A stretch of 64,000 nt of DNA from a virus. Its lineage: Duplodnaviria; Heunggongvirae; Uroviricota; Caudoviricetes. Below are positions 1,299 through 45,895 of the stretch, in pieces (position 1 is the first letter of the stretch; every line of letters starts with the position of its first letter). The notes below the pieces were generated by a model. It was given only the letters and a program-made list of their open reading frames with translations. It did no database searches and had not been told where the DNA came from. Where the stretch lies: IMG/VR virus record IMGVR_UViG_3300036856_000037; one strand, given 5' to 3'. The position numbers and the translations under genes are program-made.

Positions 1299-1735
1299 TC
1301 GTCGGCGTGACGGGATCACGAACCGGCCCGACCCACGACCAGCAGGTCTGGGCGCTCAAGCAGTTTTGCCCCGGTGGTCTGGCGGCTGACGTCGAACAGC
1401 TAGAACATGGAGCATGTGAGGGGGTCGACTGGTTCTTTCACATGGTCGCCATGACGCTCCCTGGCATCAAGATTGTGGTGCGACCCGCCACCGGGACGGC
1501 ATCGAAGTGGACGCACCAGGGTTGCTTGGTGGAACGACCCGGCGTGATGGTGATGCCGGCCAAACCGCCCCTGGACCGTACCCATGACATTGTCGACGAC
1601 TCCGGTGTCGTGTTCGCCTTTCCCGAGCAGCACTATGAGGTACTGCGCAGTGGCACCTGGGCGGGTATCCGCTACGCGCGCAAGTGTCGCAAACGGCTCT
1701 ACATCTGTTTTCCCAATGGAGACATCGGTGGCTAA
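1295..1735 (+). CDS. DUF2493/SLOG-like Rossmann protein (GVTGSR ... HGACEGVD motif)
   Basis: 146-aa ORF; N-terminal GxTGSR motif typical of DUF2493 (LOG/DprA-like SLOG superfamily); ATGA overlap with upstream gene. Confidence 0.45.
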   Translation: MIVGVTGSRTGPTHDQQVWALKQFCPGGLAADVEQLEHGACEGVDWFFHMVAMTLPGIKIVVRPATGTASKWTHQGCLVERPGVMVMPAKPPLDRTHDIVDDSGVVFAFPEQHYEVLRSGTWAGIRYARKCRKRLYICFPNGDIGG

Positions 1736-18635: not shown

Positions 18636-20384
18636 TCAGATACGCCCTGCGGCGAAATCTGACATCAGTTGCGGGACATTGCTGTCGAAGCCACTGATGT
18701 CCAAACTCGACGGGTCCTTGGGGTCGGCAATGCTGAAGTTGGTCGCCGTCATCGCGATGACACCGTACTTGACGTCATGGCCCACGAACTGCCGGTACTG
18801 CTCAAGGGCCTGCCACGGGTGAATCTGTCCGAACCAGGTCTCGTTGTCCGTGAGAGTCCAGATGGCGTCGAAGTCCAGCTTGTTGTGCATCGCCCACAGC
18901 ATGGGAAGCGCACAGTCGGTAGCGCCGAACGACAACTGCGCCATGTACTGGCACACGTCGTCCAGCCGACGCCGGGGGTCGATGTCCAGGCGTGTCGCCA
19001 CACCCGGGCGACCCCAGCCGCCGAAGCTACCCTGCCGTCCGTCCGAGAAGCCGATGATGTCGGCGTCCTGCTCAACGTTCAGCGTGACCAGCGACAGGGC
19101 TCCGACTGCCTCACGGCAGGTGATCGGCAGGCCGCTGGCCGGGCTCCCCATCGAACCCGACACGTCGCAGGCCAGCAGGATGCGCTTACGCGCCGCCTCC
19201 ACCGCGCCGTACGCGGCGTAGAACGCCTGGTCCAGCGCGTTGCTGACCTTGCGATCCGGCGTCCAGGTGCTATCACCGCGCGCACTGCGCCCACTCGCGT
19301 AGGTCCGCTGTGCCACCAACACGTTGATCGGGTGCACACGGCCACGCTTGAGCACCGCTGGGTCGGTGAGCTGCTTGACGATGGCCTTGCTGTAGCTGCT
19401 GTCCTGCGTCAGGCCCAGGTTGGTCAACCGGGGGAGCTGACGCAGGAGAGCAGTGATCGGGATGCCCTGGTCGAACAACGCCTCCCACACCGCTGGGATG
19501 CCCAGCGCCTTGTCCGGAAGCATCTCCCACGACATGCCGTTACCGTGCTGGATGATCTCCGTCCAGCGCCGTGCCGCCGACTTCTCACTGGCCGTGGTGC
19601 TCTGCGCCTCCAGGAAGTCGTTGACCAACGCGGGCAAGACCGTCTCATCGTGGTCCAACCACGTGCGGTAGTGCTCACGGTGTGTCCGGTTCAGGTGCTC
19701 AACCTGGGCCTCCTCGCGCTTGCCACCGGTGTCGACGGCGTAGCGGTAGAGGTGGTCACGCACCGAGTCGTCTGGCTGACCAATGTCGGGGTTGGCGTGG
19801 CTCAGCGCCAGCAGGTCACGGTGCATCCACCCTTCTCGCTGGCGGTACTTGAGGATCTGGTAGGCCAGCTTGTCGACGGGCTTCTGGTTGTACCAGTTGG
19901 CGACGGCGCGCTTGAACGCTCGGCCCCAGCCACGAAACTTGCGGATGTCGTTCTCCGCGCCGGGGTCGATGTAGCCGACGAACTGGTACAGGTGCGTGGC
20001 CGTACGGCACACCTGGTTCACCTTGGTCAGCGCGTAGGCGCGACCCTCATCGCCACCGAGGCTGACGGCCACGGCGAGCGCGAAGATGCACGGATTCTGT
20101 CGCGGCGCGCGGCCGGCGAGGGAGATTTCCACGACGGTGTCGACCAGCGTGATCGGGTCCTTCATCGCCATGTCCATCACGATCTGCGCGTTCTCCAGCG
20201 TGATGTCCTTGGACGACGTGTAATACGTGCCGCCCTCTGACCCCAATGTCAGCCAGCGACGAAGCCGCGCAAGTGGGTCGATCTCGAACACGAAGCCACC
20301 GGCGTTGTTCTTCGCCGTCGCAGCACCCGCGGGGCGGGACTGTGGCGTGGTGCGGATCGAAATACCCCTGAGCGTGTCAACCAT
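18636..20384 (-). CDS. rsr: Ro60/Rsr orthologue (TROVE domain + C-terminal vWA/MIDAS)
   Basis: ~580 aa; N-terminal TROVE-like region (GGFVFEIDPLARLRRWLTLGSEGGTYY); C-terminal vWA with LLACDVSGSMGSP MIDAS motif; start taken at second ATG with GGGAG spacing 6. Confidence 0.7.
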   Translation of the reverse strand: MVDTLRGISIRTTPQSRPAGAATAKNNAGGFVFEIDPLARLRRWLTLGSEGGTYYTSSKDITLENAQIVMDMAMKDPITLVDTVVEISLAGRAPRQNPCIFALAVAVSLGGDEGRAYALTKVNQVCRTATHLYQFVGYIDPGAENDIRKFRGWGRAFKRAVANWYNQKPVDKLAYQILKYRQREGWMHRDLLALSHANPDIGQPDDSVRDHLYRYAVDTGGKREEAQVEHLNRTHREHYRTWLDHDETVLPALVNDFLEAQSTTASEKSAARRWTEIIQHGNGMSWEMLPDKALGIPAVWEALFDQGIPITALLRQLPRLTNLGLTQDSSYSKAIVKQLTDPAVLKRGRVHPINVLVAQRTYASGRSARGDSTWTPDRKVSNALDQAFYAAYGAVEAARKRILLACDVSGSMGSPASGLPITCREAVGALSLVTLNVEQDADIIGFSDGRQGSFGGWGRPGVATRLDIDPRRRLDDVCQYMAQLSFGATDCALPMLWAMHNKLDFDAIWTLTDNETWFGQIHPWQALEQYRQFVGHDVKYGVIAMTATNFSIADPKDPSSLDISGFDSNVPQLMSDFAAGRI

Positions 20385-20491
20385 TTCCATCTCCCTTCTT
20401 CTCTTCAAAGCACACGCAGCACCGACGCCGATTCGTTAATTGGGGTGCTTAACACCCCGTCGACTTCCTTGGCGTCTATGCTGCGTGTGAA

Positions 20492-20564
20492 GGCGCGAAC
20501 GAAACAAGTGAGCACCGAACTAATTTCGGCAAATGAGATAATCGATGCTCATCCGGCTCGCGCC
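20492..20564 (-). ncRNA. Y-RNA-like module 6 (short; terminal stem GGCGCGA/TCGCGCC, lacks tRNA-like core)
   Basis: conserved GAGCCGGA-N5-AUCGAUUAUC hairpin and UUCGUUCG 3' motif; unit-specific complementary ends. Confidence 0.35.
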
Positions 20565-20575
20565 AAAAATCTTGT

Positions 20576-20722
20576 GAGAGTGGCGAACGAAAAAGTGTAG
20601 ACCCGTGTTTTAGTGCTCTGCCAGGCTGAGCTACACCCCACCATTGGTGGGGTGACGGGATTCGAACCCGCGACCACTCGATCCCAATTCGATAACGAAT
20701 CCGCATCCGGCTCGCCACTCTC
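20576..20722 (-). ncRNA. Y-RNA-like module 5 with permuted tRNA-like core (T-arm, acceptor-like hairpin, D-arm)
   Basis: 11-bp terminal stem GAGAGUGGCGA/UCGCCACUCUC; GGUCGCGGGUUCGAAUCCCGU-CACCCCA-ccaaugg-UGGGGUG-UA-GCUCAGCCUGGCAGAGC. Confidence 0.5.
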
Positions 20723-20742
20723 AAAAGTTAGTGACCTGAACG

Positions 20743-20854
20743 AAATTCGGCATCCAGCTGAACTGGATTTCTCCAGCCGCAGGGACTTCTACCTCCCCGC
20801 TTAGCGTTTAGGGCTCGCCAGCCGCAGATAACTGAATACACTCCGGCTCAGGTC
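20743..20854 (-). ncRNA. Y-RNA-like module 4 (terminal stem UGACCUGA/UCAGGUCA; no T-loop)
   Basis: conserved GAGCCGGA...UUCAGUUAUC hairpin; internal hairpins. Confidence 0.35.
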
Positions 20855-20863
20855 AACGTACAA

Positions 20864-21002
20864 GGTCCGAACGAAAATGTGACGACCGGCGTTTTTAGGG
20901 TGGGATTTGAACCCACGACCTTCACCCGCGAGGGCGATGCTCTACCAACCTGAGCTACCCCGCTAATTTGTGCGGATAACCGAACGTGCTCCGGCTCGGA
21001 CC
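20864..21002 (-). ncRNA. Y-RNA-like module 3 with near-complete tRNA-like core
   Basis: terminal stem GGUCCGA/UCGGACC; GGGGUAGCUCAGGUUGGUAGAGC ... GGUCGUGGGUUCAAAUCCCAC, but no canonical acceptor pairing and a 6-nt anticodon-like loop. Confidence 0.5.
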
Positions 21003-21010
21003 GAAGTTGT

Positions 21011-21145
21011 GGTGGCGAACGAAGTAGTTGTCGACTCGCGTTTAGCGACTTAGGCCTCTCGTCCACACCCCGAAGGGTGACGGGATTTGAACCCGCGTCT
21101 CTCTTTTTGACAGAAAGGTAACGAATAGACTTCCGGCTCGCCACC
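21011..21145 (-). ncRNA. Y-RNA-like module 2 (T-arm + acceptor-like hairpin closed by UUCG)
   Basis: terminal stem GGUGGCGA/UCGCCACC; GCGGGUUCAAAUCCCGUCACCCuucgGGGUG. Confidence 0.45.
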
Positions 21146-21158
21146 GAAGTTTGTAGGA

Positions 21159-21257
21159 GACGCGAACGAAGCAGTTGCCGCCGGATTCACACCCCTACGC
21201 GGGGTGAGAAGGATTCGAACCTTTTAGCCGATAACCGAACAGCTTCCGGCTCGCGTC
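21159..21257 (-). ncRNA. Y-RNA-like module 1 (T-arm + acceptor-like hairpin)
   Basis: 10-bp terminal stem GGAGACGCGA/UCGCGUCUCC; AAGGUUCGAAUCCUUCUCACCCCgcguaGGGGUG. Confidence 0.45.
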
Positions 21258-21274
21258 TCCCTATGAAATTTTCT

Positions 21275-44523: not shown

Positions 44524-44843
44524 TGCCGGTCAAACTCGTCGGCGTCGGCCAGGCGGGGCGGGCGGTCGTAGATGAGCACCTGGCGCGATGCCTCGCAGCC
44601 CGTTTCCTTGTCAATATTGGGGACTTCCATCGTCAGCTCAAAGCCTTGGGGCATCTTGGTGGTGCCCTCATGTGAGATGGTCAACTTAGTCACTCGAAAA
44701 CCGTTTTCATGCGACCGGGTGAGCACCGACTGATAGCCGTATTCACCGAAGTAGCGGGCTATCTCTTCGATACTGTCGTAGCCCACCAGGACAGCTGCGC
44801 ATCGCGCGGGACGCTCGTCGTATTCCGTGAAGAGGTCGCTCAT
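44502..44843 (-). CDS. hypothetical protein
   Basis: 113-aa ORF. Confidence 0.4.
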   Translation of the reverse strand: MSDLFTEYDERPARCAAVLVGYDSIEEIARYFGEYGYQSVLTRSHENGFRVTKLTISHEGTTKMPQGFELTMEVPNIDKETGCEASRQVLIYDRPPRLADADEFDRQWAEVKR

Positions 44844-45895
44844 ACTTTTCCTTCCGTCGACGGGTCGCCGTAGTCGCCCGCTTTCAATTCCTTCCCTGCC
44901 GCCAGGTCGGCGACCAGCTTCATATGCGGAGAGAAGCCGTCCACCAGGTGCAGGTGTGGGCCGTAGAATTCCTCAAACACCTTGCGCTCCCGGATGCCGG
45001 CGCCACACCCACTCATCGCCAGGTGCTGGACCGGCCCGTCCCCCAGGCTCCAGCCCTTGAGGCGGCCCCACTGCGGTGGTGTCACCGGCTTGTTGCGGAA
45101 GGTCTTGCGCCACTGCTCCTCCTGCACGGAGGCGGACAGCGCGGACAGGCGGACCAGCAGCACGCGGTTCTTAGGTCCCGACTTGGCGATTTCACTAGGC
45201 AGGACGCCGTAGTAGTCCTTGAGTAGTTGCGCCACCCGGGGCTTGTAGACGCCCTTGCCACCGTCCAGGTCGACGCCGATGCTTTCCCCCGTGACGGGGT
45301 CACGCAGCATGATGCGCCCATAGCGGTATGCCTGGCCCCAGCCCGAGGAGTCGACGGAGAAGAACGGCAACCGCATCCAATCCCGGTGCGTCATCCCCCA
45401 GCCGTGGAAGCGCATCTGCGGGTGGTTGTCCCGGGCGTATTTGAAGACACTGACCAGCCAGCGGAACGTCGCACTGGGCGGCCACGGTTGTCCCGCGACA
45501 CCGCCCAGCCCGAGAAAGTCCACGCCTTGCTCGGCATACCAGTCCATCGTCTCTGGCGGGTCACCCGCGTGGATGGTGGAGACGCCCGGGATGCCCAGGT
45601 CGCACATCCGTTGCCAGTTGCGCTTGGTCTGCTCAATAGACGGCACATCGAGTGCCGCGACCCAGGACAGCAGGTGTTCCCACTTATTCACCCAGGCGAC
45701 CAACTGCGTGGTGCTGATCGTCTTACCCAGCGTCCTGGCCGAGAAGGCGCCACTATCCGCGACGATGTTGCATGACGAGAACTTCTCGATGTCGATCCGC
45801 TTGTAATACCAGTACGACAGCAGGATGTTGCGCGGCGGCGGGATTCGCCCAGCGCCCTGGAGACGCAACTCGCTCACACGTCCTCCACAATCCAC
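44840..45895 (-). CDS. dpdA: DpdA-like DNA-guanine transglycosylase (TGT superfamily)
   Basis: ILLSYWYY ... [11 protein letters not shown]-like substrate pocket motif; 351 aa. Confidence 0.6.

What the first reader, a model, noticed from the sequence alone, without database searches (positions are those of the whole stretch)
20576..21145. tRNA-like cores appear circularly permuted relative to tRNA: T-arm, acceptor-like helix closed by a loop, then D-arm
In module 5, reading the minus strand, the order is: GGUCGCGGGUUCGAAUCCCGU (T-arm), CACCCCA, ccaaugg, UGGGGUG (a perfect 7-bp acceptor-like helix closed by a loop, including a CCA-like triplet), then UA-GCUC-AGCCUGGCA-GAGC (U8/A9-like spacer plus D-arm).

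Modules 1 and 2 show T-arm plus CACCCC-gcgua-GGGGUG and CACCC-uucg-GGGUG hairpins. Module 3 has D-arm, an anticodon-like hairpin with a 6-nt loop, and T-arm, but no 7-bp acceptor pairing.

This is not a canonical tRNA gene layout. The arrangement matches a tRNA-mimic domain placed at the distal end of a longer stem-loop RNA.
Basis: seen in the sequence. Interest (0 to 1): 0.75.

Follow-up and report, generated by a model that had tools for sequence, protein, structure and literature searches.

The report
Phage Y-RNA array with tRNA-mimic heads
The odd "rearranged tRNA" pieces are real, but they are a known kind of small RNA (YrlA-type Y RNAs, which bind the Ro60 protein and mimic tRNA), here as six tandem copies with different heads just upstream of a phage Ro60 gene.

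Summary
The minus strand 21260..20492 holds six tandem stem-loop modules (M1-M6), 8-12 nt apart, ending about 100 nt upstream of a Ro60/Rsr gene (20390..18636, minus strand) in a phage or prophage.

All six share one frame: a 9-12 bp closing stem, GAGC[C]GGA/UUC-GUUC with a bulged C, a second helix, and a UUAYC motif.

- M5 has the full permuted core: V hairpin, T-arm, 7-bp closed acceptor-like hairpin, U8/A9, D-arm. This is the published YrlA architecture (Chen et al. 2014).
- In 11 phage homologues 93% of cells pair (33-48% when partners are slid). All seven acceptor pairs covary, and so does the 15:48 Levitt pair.
M1 keeps only the T-arm and the hairpin. M6 is frame only. M4 has a head that is not tRNA-like.
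- M3 is not permuted. It has D-arm, a hairpin with a 6-nt loop, then T-arm, as modelled for D. radiodurans Yrn1. Six other distinct loci, five next to a Ro gene, carry the same class.

Arrays of 4-7 modules recur at other phage Ro loci.

Verdict: a new member of a known kind. The modestly new points are that both orientations share one Ro-binding frame, and that the native-order class recurs.

The parts
21156..21260 (-). M1: Y-RNA module with the Ro-type frame, a short T-arm (21224-21208) and a closed hairpin CACCCC-GCGUA-GGGGUG (21206-21190). No D-arm.
   Evidence: Sequence. MFE z = -4.08. R1 full-length match at 37.4 bits with the D-arm skipped. Frame geometry.
21011..21145 (-). M2: permuted (YrlA-type) module. 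6-bp V arm, T-arm 21096-21080, 5-bp acceptor-like hairpin with UUCG loop 21079-21066, UG spacer, and a 3-bp D-stem with an 11-nt loop (GAC-GAGAGGCCUAA-GUC, 21063-21047).
   Evidence: R1 72.1 bits, full length. The same D-arm segment recurs in L222 and with a compensated stem (GCA/UGC) in L179:167-307. Fold.
20864..21002 (-). M3: native-order tRNA-like module in the same frame. V-like hairpin CCGC-ACAAAUUA-GCGG, GG, UA, D-arm 20955-20939, 5-bp hairpin with 6-nt loop 20937-20922, AGGUC, T-arm 20916-20900, CC, UAAAAAC.
   Evidence: Rfam tRNA 36.9 bits over model positions 6-65 only. ARAGORN finds nothing. R2 class alignment: 83.8% paired against 33-51% slid. Fold.
20733..20854 (-). M4: Y-RNA module with the same frame and helix 2, but a head of three hairpins with no tRNA signature.
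   Evidence: R1 31.0 bits, frame only. MFE -53.9, z = -3.94. No counterpart of the head found by blastn-short against the loci fetched up to that point, L001-L244.
20576..20720 (-). M5: complete YrlA-type Y RNA. Frame, helix 2 (GGAUUCG/CGGGUCU), UUAUC plus V hairpin, T-arm 20671-20655, 7-bp acceptor-like hairpin 20654-20634, U8/A9 20633-20632, D-arm 20631-20615, CUAAAAC linker.
   Evidence: Rfam YrlA 44.7 bits, model 1-114. R1 117.8 bits with no mispaired position. Covariation in A1. G15:C48. MFE z = -5.40.
20492..20564 (-). M6: minimal 73-nt Y RNA with frame, helix 2 and a loop only. It sits in the position that YrlB occupies in M. smegmatis.
   Evidence: R1 37.3 bits. z = -4.09. Minimal modules of 73-81 nt occupy the same position next to Ro in Farewell, L179, L241, Dandelion and L171.
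20411..20489 (-). Long imperfect hairpin between the array and the Ro start codon. Possibly a processing or attenuation element (inference).
   Evidence: MFE -46.9 kcal/mol, z = -5.95, 0 of 200 shuffles as stable.
18636..20390 (-). Ro60/Rsr orthologue (584 aa from the ATG at 20390, preceded by AAGGGAG), the presumed protein partner of the six RNAs.
   Evidence: Pfam TROVE 8.4e-47 and vWA_Ro60 9.4e-54. PDB: D. radiodurans Rsr 1.2e-92, X. laevis Ro60 2.9e-88, human RO60 3.3e-86. 50-54% identity to 'Ro-like RNA binding protein' of actinobacteriophages.

Best explanation
The region is a tandem array of six Y-RNA genes (M1-M6) encoded immediately upstream of, and on the same strand as, a phage Ro60/Rsr gene.

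Each RNA folds into a long stem. The base of that stem (a 9-12 bp closing helix, then 5'-GAGC[C]GGA / 3'-CUUG-CUU with a bulged C) is the Ro60-binding module. The tip is a variable 'head'.

In M5 and M2 the head is a YrlA-type tRNA mimic. It is a tRNA opened where the anticodon loop would be: helix 2 of the Y RNA takes the place of the anticodon stem. It is closed at the acceptor end by a loop. Read 5' to 3', the order is therefore variable hairpin, T-arm, acceptor hairpin, D-arm. M3 carries the alternative Yrn1-like design in native order, joined to the Y stem at the acceptor end and with a shortened anticodon hairpin. M1 keeps the T-arm and acceptor hairpin only. M4 has a non-tRNA head. M6 has none.

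Shown here: the sequences, the conserved frame, the helices (by covariation), the elbow-forming nucleotides, and the linkage to Ro60.

Inferred from published work on D. radiodurans, S. Typhimurium, M. smegmatis and Thermus phage phiLo:
- The modules are cut from one precursor.
- Each binds the phage Ro60 ring through the bulged helix.
- The head recruits, or is recognised by, a second factor. [quoted passage not shown] This would redirect host RNA decay or quality control during infection.
- Different heads would give the one Ro60 protein different partners or regulation.
For: Ro60 gene downstream on the same strand.

Six frame motifs against 0 expected. Exactly six full-length CM matches in the window.

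Frame geometry is identical in all six. Among the six paralogues the frame helices are 96.3% paired against 30-44% when slid, and 11 of 18 pairs show compensatory changes.

M5 matches Rfam YrlA over the whole model.

RNAalifold on 11 phage homologues independently recovers the closing stem, T-arm, 7-bp acceptor hairpin and D-stem. Counts: 93% paired against 33-48% slid, 20 of 34 pairs with double changes, 0 of 500 shuffles as good, and all 7 acceptor pairs covary.

The Levitt pair covaries: 8 G15:C48 and 3 A15:U48.

The M3 class has 7 distinct members, 83.8% paired against 33-51% slid. Ro is adjacent in five of the six other loci: L263, L268, L290, L322 and L248.

The window is a phage or prophage: tail proteins, RecT, replication initiator.

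Literature: YrlA architecture, tRNA-type modifications, and RNase P cleavage with CCA completion of the M. smegmatis YrlA that has a 7-bp acceptor stem (PMC4201824). The crystal structure shows a true tRNA-like fold (10.1101/312249). Phage phiLo Ro60 binds two upstream Yrl RNAs and host PNPase (PMC12135203).
Against: There is no expression, binding or processing data for this locus.

The simple sigma-70 promoter and terminator scan found no promoter, and its two terminator-like hits were within the number expected by chance.

M5 is below Rfam's gathering score (44.7 against 69). The published 5' motif GNCGAAN0-1G is matched only as GCCGGA[A/U/G]N, with G instead of A at position 5.

The physiological partner of the tRNA-like head is unknown even in the model organisms.

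The M3-class alignment is small, was fitted to the model, and five of its seven members were found with a pattern designed to find them.
Confidence: 0.88

Rival explanations
1. The region is a decayed tRNA gene cluster, or a run of adjacent tRNA genes. The T-arm-then-D-arm order would then be the 3' half of one tRNA followed by the 5' half of the next. This is the 'dimeric tRNA' artefact that Chen et al. warn about.
For: Many related phage Ro loci do carry real tRNA genes next to or between Y modules. Tandem tRNAs give weak R1 matches at L121 11224-11339 and 10891-11015. M3 passes the Rfam tRNA threshold.
Against: ARAGORN finds no tRNA in the window.

In M5 and M2 no anticodon arm lies between or around the pieces. 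The acceptor strands are joined by a 4-7 nt loop.

Every module is enclosed by the same conserved bulged frame, which covaries.

The acceptor hairpin covaries as a closed hairpin in 11 homologues.

The array is linked to Ro60.
Confidence: 0.03
2. The tRNA-like heads do not bind an effector. They only act as very stable caps that protect the Y RNAs from endonucleolytic nicks and exonucleases. This is the first possibility discussed by Chen et al.
For: It is discussed in PMC4201824. Heads differ widely within the array: M4 is not tRNA-like and M6 has no head. That would be tolerable if only stability mattered.
Against: D-stem and T-stem bases that are not needed for tRNA tertiary structure are invariant across distant phage homologues. 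The D-stem is 11 of 11 identical, the same argument Chen et al. make.

The distinct M2 and M3 head types recur in unrelated phage or metagenome loci. This suggests selection on head identity.
Confidence: 0.2
3. The heads act mainly as decoys or competitors for host enzymes or defence nucleases that recognise the tRNA elbow or acceptor end, largely independently of Ro60's RNA-decay role.
For: The elements sit in a phage. They are close mimics with all elbow nucleotides. YrlA is modified by TruB and DusA and cut by RNase P in other species.
Against: This is pure inference. The permuted heads lack an anticodon loop and M3's is shortened, so anticodon nucleases are unlikely targets. The strict, conserved linkage of every module to a Ro-binding frame and to the Ro gene argues that Ro binding is central.
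Confidence: 0.08
4. This is a sub-hypothesis about M5 and is compatible with the best explanation. Like M. smegmatis YrlA, M5 is cut by RNase P at the 5' side of U20640. The 5' half is trimmed to ...CACCCCA-CC and completed to CCA. The result is a two-piece Y RNA with a free acceptor end.
For: M5 has the 7-bp acceptor stem stacked on a 5-bp T-stem. Chen et al. identify this as the determinant of RNase P cleavage. The loop begins CCA directly after the 7-nt 3' strand.
Against: The hairpin can extend to 9 bp with a 3-nt loop. That would pair positions -1 and -2 with 73 and 74.

Homologues often close the stem with UUCG or other short loops, and the CCA is not conserved.

No data exist for this phage or its host.
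Confidence: 0.3

Closest known systems
YrlA (Y RNA-like A; Rfam RF02553), especially the M. smegmatis and mycobacteriophage forms (Chen et al. 2014, PMC4201824; structure in Wang et al. 2018, 10.1101/312249)
   Same: Encoded just upstream of Ro60 on the same strand. It has a 5' Ro-binding motif and a YUAY motif that opens a V hairpin. The order is T-arm, closed acceptor-like stem-loop, then U8/A9 and D-arm. All elbow nucleotides and the Levitt pair are present. M5 is about 145 nt with a 7-bp acceptor stem, like the M. smegmatis RNA of about 147 nt.
   Different: The motif reads GCCGGA rather than GNCGAA. Both strands of the Ro-binding helix are conserved, with a bulged C. Chen et al. report that only the 5' strand is recognisable in the Salmonella and M. 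smegmatis RNAs. M5 is below the Rfam gathering score. It is one of six modules, not one of two.
D. radiodurans Yrn1
   Same: M3 has the Yrn1 orientation: D side first, then an 'anticodon arm' with a 5-bp stem and a 6-nt loop, then the T-arm, joined to the Ro-binding stem at the acceptor end. Both strands of the bulged Ro-binding helix are retained.
   Different: [quoted passage not shown] M3 also shares its frame, UUAUC motif and UAAAAC linker with the YrlA-type modules beside it. Sequence homology to Yrn1 was not tested.
YrlB (S. Typhimurium, M. smegmatis) and Thermus phage phiLo Yrl1/Yrl2 (PMC12135203)
   Same: These are additional small Ro-bound RNAs encoded between YrlA and rsr or upstream of a phage Ro60. 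M. smegmatis YrlB has a possible T-arm, as M1 does. M6 occupies the YrlB position. phiLo shows that phage Ro60 binds phage Yrls and host PNPase.
   Different: Two RNAs per locus there and six here. No sequence similarity was established.
Metazoan Y RNAs
   Same: A terminal stem with a conserved bulged-C helix contacted by Ro60 (GGUC[C]GA against GAGC[C]GGA), and a variable distal region. The metazoan consensus is recalled and also quoted.
   Different: Metazoan Y RNAs have no tRNA-like domain. Rfam Y_RNA gives no match here, even at E <= 10.
Other permuted or tRNA-like RNAs: two-piece (permuted) tmRNA, and circularly permuted tRNA genes of some algae and archaea (from my own knowledge)
   Same: The T-arm and acceptor 3' strand precede the acceptor 5' strand and D-arm in the gene. 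M5 gives weak sub-threshold matches to the tmRNA models (23.3 and 17.8 bits against 47).
   Different: Those are processed to functional aminoacylatable molecules with free ends. Here the acceptor end is closed by a loop, there is no anticodon or tag reading frame, and the domain is embedded in a Ro-binding stem.

Membership tests
YrlA-type bacterial/phage Y RNA | Encoded within about 4 kb of a Ro60 (TROVE) orthologue, on the same strand | tested here: met
   The array at 21260-20492 (-) ends 101 nt upstream of the Ro60 ATG at 20390 (-). Ro60 identity.
YrlA-type bacterial/phage Y RNA | 5' motif GNCGAAN0-1G near the 5' end (the presumed Ro60 contact) | tested here: inconclusive
   All six modules read GCCGGA followed by AG, UG, GC or GU. 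Position 5 is G, not A, and M3 and M4 also lack the closing G, reading GCCGGAGC and GCCGGAGU. Homologous modules in related loci alternate GAA and GGA at this site. Both versions pair with the conserved 3' UUC. The strict published consensus is not matched; a purine variant is.
YrlA-type bacterial/phage Y RNA | Conserved T and D stem-loops with an 'AS' stem-loop between them, in the order V, T, AS, D | tested here: met
   M5 and M2. The consensus structure was recovered without a prior. Covariation: 93% paired, 7 of 7 AS pairs with compensatory changes. M1 lacks D. M3, M4 and M6 do not meet this feature.
YrlA-type bacterial/phage Y RNA | tRNA tertiary-interaction nucleotides, including a covarying 15:48 Levitt pair | tested here: met
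   M5 has U8, A14, G15, G18G19, A21, G53-U54-U55-C56, A58, C61 and C48. Across the alignment, 15:48 is G:C in 8 sequences and A:U in 3.
YrlA-type bacterial/phage Y RNA | YUAY motif that begins the V loop | tested here: met
   UUAUC (UUACC in M2) lies exactly 10 nt after GAGCCGGA in all six modules.
YrlA-type bacterial/phage Y RNA | Score at or above the Rfam RF02553 gathering threshold (69 bits) | tested here: not met
   M5 scores 44.7 bits (E = 2e-8 locally, full model 1-114). No YrlA-type module in 15 related phage loci reaches the threshold either, so the threshold appears poorly suited to this clade.
YrlA-type bacterial/phage Y RNA | [quoted passage not shown] | not testable with these tools
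   Needs immunoprecipitation, modification mapping and cleavage assays.
Yrn1-type (native-order) Y RNA | D-side element, then an 'anticodon arm' with a 5-bp stem and a 6-nt loop, then the T-arm, attached to the Ro-binding stem at the acceptor end | tested here: met
   M3: Rfam tRNA alignment over positions 6-65 with a 6-nt loop. Class alignment of 7 members, 83.8% paired against 33-51% slid.
Yrn1-type (native-order) Y RNA | Both strands of the bulged Ro-binding helix retained | tested here: met
   GAGC[C]GGA / UUC-GUUC in all six modules. 96.3% paired among the paralogues.
Yrn1-type (native-order) Y RNA | Sequence homology to D. radiodurans Yrn1 | not tested
Chen et al. found no Yrn1 orthologues by BLAST.
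Canonical tRNA | 7-bp acceptor stem formed by free 5' and 3' ends, and a 7-nt anticodon loop | tested here: not met
   ARAGORN finds 0 genes. M3 matches only positions 6-65 and has a 6-nt loop. In M5 and M2 the acceptor is closed by a loop and there is no anticodon arm.
tmRNA (standard or permuted) | Rfam threshold reached, a tag reading frame, and pseudoknots | tested here: not met
   23.3 and 17.8 bits against a gathering score of 47, matching only the T-arm and acceptor part. ARAGORN finds no tmRNA.

The most novel reading that the evidence does not exclude
Native-order tRNA-like Y RNAs form a recurrent class that, as far as I could find, has not been described. They have a complete D-arm, a shortened anticodon hairpin and a T-arm, and are joined to the Ro-binding stem at the acceptor end. 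This class shares its Ro-binding frame, UUAUC motif and linker with the permuted YrlA class and can sit in the same array.

That would mean phage Ro60 systems exchange tRNA-derived heads on a common scaffold, rather than YrlA and Yrn1 being independent inventions. It would also mean phages carry sets of 4-7 different heads as alternative adaptors for a single Ro60 protein.
Probability: 0.4. Interest if true: 0.55.

Novelty: new member of a known kind. Interest (0 to 1): 0.35.

Why it matters
The permuted tRNA-like core is already explained by YrlA biology, so the main value is correct annotation.

These modules are invisible to standard pipelines. ARAGORN either misses them or mis-calls them: prophiGD43A-5 has one annotated as tRNA-Thr. 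Rfam's YrlA threshold is not reached by any of the actinobacteriophage modules examined.

Beyond that, the locus is a compact natural experiment. One Ro60 gene sits next to six RNAs with an identical protein-binding frame and six different heads, including both known orientations of tRNA mimicry. Testing which host or phage factors each head binds could address what the tRNA-like domain of bacterial Y RNAs is for. Chen et al. explicitly left that question open.

Tried and rejected
- The search for related loci with the single Ro protein found no relatives in genome or viral contigs. The exact peptide words were too specific.
- The 14-base frame pattern returned mostly chance hits. None of the 120 genome-contig hits encoded Ro, and about 10 of the 120 viral hits did.
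- My first module finder, with a fixed 3' motif, missed diverged homologues and produced one false positive inside the Ro ORF. I replaced it with a complementarity search and then with covariance models.
- The strict D-then-T pattern found nothing in the viral or metagenome collections.
- The loosened pattern gave 77 metagenome hits. Most are ordinary tRNA genes with a chance upstream motif, and only about 5 are real.
- The sigma-70 promoter and terminator scan gave nothing above chance.
- Comparing M2's D-arm with the Farewell tRNA-Ser and tRNA-Tyr was uninformative because those phage tRNAs are atypical. The resemblance to class II tRNA D-arms therefore rests on memory only.
- The Annual Review on bacterial Ro60 and Y RNAs (PMC10870794) is not held, so I could not check what it says about the number of Y RNAs per locus.
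- Megablast of 20 kb of the window against the phage collection found no close relative.
- The M4 and M6 heads have no detectable counterparts among the loci fetched up to that point, L001-L244.
Full report
**What is in the sequence.**

Read on the minus strand, 21260..20492 contains six stem-loop modules:

| Module | Coordinates |
|---|---|
| M1 | 21260-21156 |
| M2 | 21145-21011 |
| M3 | 21002-20864 |
| M4 | 20854-20733 |
| M5 | 20720-20576 |
| M6 | 20564-20492 |

The spacers between them are only 8-12 nt.

- In M5 the T-arm is at 20671-20655. CACCCCA/ccaaugg/UGGGGUG is at 20654-20634, UA at 20633-20632, and the D-arm GCUC-AGCCUGGCA-GAGC at 20631-20615.
- M1 and M2 have T-arms followed by the CACCCC-GCGUA-GGGGUG and CACCC-UUCG-GGGUG hairpins.
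- M3 has a D-arm, a 5-bp hairpin with a 6-nt loop, and a T-arm, with no acceptor stem.

ARAGORN finds no tRNA or tmRNA in the whole 64-kb window. At Rfam gathering thresholds the only hit is tRNA on M3, covering model positions 6-65 only (36.9 bits).

**More than chance.**

- All six modules share GAGCCGGA-N10-UUAYC. That pattern occurs six times in the window and never in 100 shuffles.
- M1, M2, M4, M5 and M6 fold with z-scores between -2.9 and -5.4. M3, refolded over its correct range, gives z = -2.6.
- In every module the geometry is the same: a 9-12 bp closing stem, GAGC paired to GUUC, a bulged C, then GGA paired to UUC.
- With the six paralogues aligned to a covariance model, the two frame helices are 96.3% paired. 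With the partners slid, the figure is 30-44%. Eleven of 18 pairs show compensatory changes.

**Context.**

The ORF immediately downstream on the same strand is a Ro60/Rsr orthologue, with its ATG at 20390 preceded by AAGGGAG.

- Pfam gives TROVE 8e-47 and Ro60 vWA 9e-54.
- The PDB search gives D. radiodurans Rsr 1e-92, Xenopus Ro60 3e-88 and human RO60 3e-86.
- It is 50-54% identical to the 'Ro-like RNA binding protein' of mycobacteriophages and Gordonia phages.

The window itself is a phage or prophage of a high-GC host. It encodes minor tail proteins, RecT, a replication initiator and a queuine tRNA-ribosyltransferase-like protein. It has no close relative in the phage collection.

**Identity of the permuted cores.**

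In a local Rfam search, M5 aligns over the entire YrlA model (RF02553, 1-114). The score is 44.7 bits, E = 2e-8, below the gathering score of 69.

Chen et al. 2014 (PMC4201824) describe this design:
- a Ro-binding 5' motif;
- a YUAY motif that opens a V hairpin;
- a T stem-loop, an 'AS' stem-loop that corresponds to the acceptor stem, and a D stem-loop.

Together these form a tRNA-like domain that is modified by TruB and DusA. The M. smegmatis RNA is about 147 nt with a 7-bp acceptor stem. It is cut by RNase P and completed to CCA in vivo. A crystal structure confirms a true tRNA fold that lacks a free CCA end (10.1101/312249). The 'circular permutation' is therefore the known YrlA architecture.

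From the alignments, helix 2 of the Y RNA (GAUCGG/CCGGUC type; GGAUUCG/CGGGUCU in M5) takes the place of the anticodon stem. The gene is thus a tRNA opened at the anticodon loop and closed at the acceptor end.

**Comparative test.**

I collected Ro-linked homologues from IMG/VR contigs and annotated phages and aligned M5 with ten of them (A1).

- RNAalifold, with no structure supplied, recovered the closing stem, a 5-bp T-stem, a 7-bp acceptor hairpin and the 4-bp D-stem. Seventeen of 26 pairs carry compensatory changes.
- With helix 2 added, 93.0% of cells pair against 33-48% when partners are slid. Twenty of 34 pairs have double changes, and no shuffle in 500 reaches any measure. All seven acceptor-hairpin pairs covary, while the D-stem is invariant.
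- The 15:48 Levitt pair covaries perfectly, G:C in eight sequences and A:U in three. This is the same tertiary signature Chen et al. used.

**The other modules.**

A covariance model from A1 (R1) finds exactly six full-length matches in the window:

| Module | Bits |
|---|---|
| M5 | 117.8 |
| M2 | 72.1 |
| M1 | 37.4 |
| M6 | 37.3 |
| M3 | 33.9 |
| M4 | 31.0 |

The alignments show that all six keep the frame and helix 2.

- M2 also has the permuted core: a 6-bp V arm, a T-arm, and a 5-bp acceptor hairpin.
The same segment recurs in L222, and with a compensated stem (GCA/UGC) in L179. Its likeness to class II tRNA D-arms is from my memory and was not tested (searches were uninformative).
- M1 has lost the D-arm. 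M6 is a minimal Y RNA. M4 carries three hairpins with no tRNA signature.
- The order M5, M6, rsr mirrors YrlA, YrlB, rsr in M. smegmatis. Minimal modules sit next to Ro in several phages.

**M3 is not permuted.**

Its order is V-like hairpin, GG, U8/A9, D-arm, short hairpin, AGGUC, T-arm, CC, UAAAAAC. This is the orientation Chen et al. modelled for D. radiodurans Yrn1, including the 5-bp stem and 6-nt loop. Unlike Yrn1, M3 has a complete D-arm.

- No comparable tRNA match inside a Y frame exists in 15 related phage loci.
- A strict frame, D-arm, T-arm pattern found nothing.
- A looser pattern gave 77 metagenome hits. Most are ordinary tRNAs, but L263, L268, L290, L316 and L322 are real framed modules. 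Four of these have Ro adjacent.
- A model built from these (R2) found a further member, not in its training set, at 98.9 bits in two viral contigs that carry Ro (L248 and L253).
- On the seven distinct members, 83.8% of cells pair against 33-51% slid, and 15 of 28 pairs have double changes.

This is moderate evidence. The set is small, partly selected by pattern, and the alignment is fitted to the model.

**Arrays are common.**

The following counts combine R1 matches and the 5'-motif finder:

| Locus | Modules upstream of Ro |
|---|---|
| L206 | about 7 |
| prophiGD43A-5 (L241) | 6 |
| L121, L132, L187, L180 | 5 each |
| L205, L207, L222, L179 | 4 each |
| Farewell/Sparky, Cashline, Dandelion | 2 each |

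Real tRNA genes often lie beside or between the modules. I found no paper in the searchable library that describes such multi-module phage arrays. The key review was not available. Two Yrl RNAs upstream of a phage Ro60 that bind it and host PNPase are described for Thermus phage phiLo.

**Mechanism.**

Shown here: the sequences, the conserved frame and helices, the elbow-forming nucleotides, and the linkage to Ro60.

Inferred from the cited work:
- The modules are processed from a common precursor. The tight spacing fits this, and so does the M. smegmatis precedent. No promoter was found, and the terminator-like hits were within chance.
- Each module binds the Ro60 ring by its bulged helix.
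- The head engages a second factor. Candidates are PNPase in a RYPER-like complex, or tRNA-recognising enzymes.
- The different heads would diversify what the one Ro60 protein does during infection.

The rivals are listed separately: a decayed tRNA cluster, heads that act only as stability caps, and tRNA-enzyme decoys. The first is essentially excluded.

Whether M5 is split by RNase P and given a CCA end is open. It has the 7-bp stem, and CCA begins its loop. But the stem can extend to 9 bp, and the CCA is not conserved in homologues.

**Verdict.**

The kind is already known (YrlA-type and Yrn1-type Y RNAs with Ro60), and this is a new, unannotated member in a new phage.

The modestly new points:
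- The two orientations of tRNA mimicry, thought to be separate lineages, share one Ro-binding frame within one array.
- The native-order class recurs in other Ro loci.
- Current tools miss or mis-call these RNAs.

Noticed in passing
window 20411-20489 (-): A long imperfect hairpin (12+6+7 bp; MFE -46.9 kcal/mol, z = -5.95) lies between the last Y module and the Ro60 start codon and is followed by UGCUUUGAAG. It could be a processing site or an attenuator separating the RNA array from the Ro mRNA.
   Followed up: partly
L241 2250-2328 (Mycobacterium phage prophiGD43A-5, MW584167.1 26001-26079): The GenBank feature 'tRNA-Thr (tgt)', which ARAGORN reproduces, overlaps a YrlA-type module that scores 122 bits with my model at 2255-2388. 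It is very likely a mis-called Y RNA. This prophage has about six modules upstream of its Ro gene.
   Followed up: partly
L179, L233, L222, L207, L121, L206, L180, L205, L171, L132, L187, L241-L244: No YrlA-type module in these 15 phage Ro loci reaches the Rfam RF02553 gathering score, although many score 90-128 bits with a clade-specific model. The curated threshold or seed seems to under-detect actinobacteriophage YrlAs.
   Followed up: partly
L121 (15 tRNAs), L205 (7), L132, L171, L242: Genuine tRNA gene clusters lie directly next to the Y-RNA arrays. In L132, tRNA-Gly and tRNA-Pro lie between Y modules. This suggests common transcription or processing and a possible route for capturing tRNA-derived heads.
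   Followed up: no
L332 about 1299-1440 (+) (metagenome contig Ga0209633_10055699): An apparently complete tRNA-Ile(GAU)-like cloverleaf, with a 7-bp acceptor stem and a 7-nt anticodon loop, follows directly after a GAGCCGGA...GGUUAUC frame motif. Another frame motif follows it. The closing stem is weak, so it is unclear whether a whole tRNA is embedded in a Y frame.
   Followed up: no
window 44840-45895 (-): A queuine tRNA-ribosyltransferase-like gene (phrog_7068, E = 6.8e-115) sits in a phage window that has no tRNA genes at all. It may act in 7-deazaguanine DNA modification rather than on tRNA (inference from general knowledge).
   Followed up: no
window 20733-20854 (-), module M4: The M4 head is three hairpins closed by helix 2. 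This is a four-way junction with the cloverleaf's topology but none of the tRNA sequence signatures. No counterpart was found among the loci fetched up to that point (L001-L244).
   Followed up: partly
window M6 and L242:2764-2836, L179:413-485, L241:2893-2973, L244:2873-2946, L171:5260-5340: A minimal 73-81 nt Y module (frame plus loop) is consistently the module nearest the Ro gene. This matches the YrlA-YrlB-rsr order reported for M. smegmatis.
   Followed up: partly
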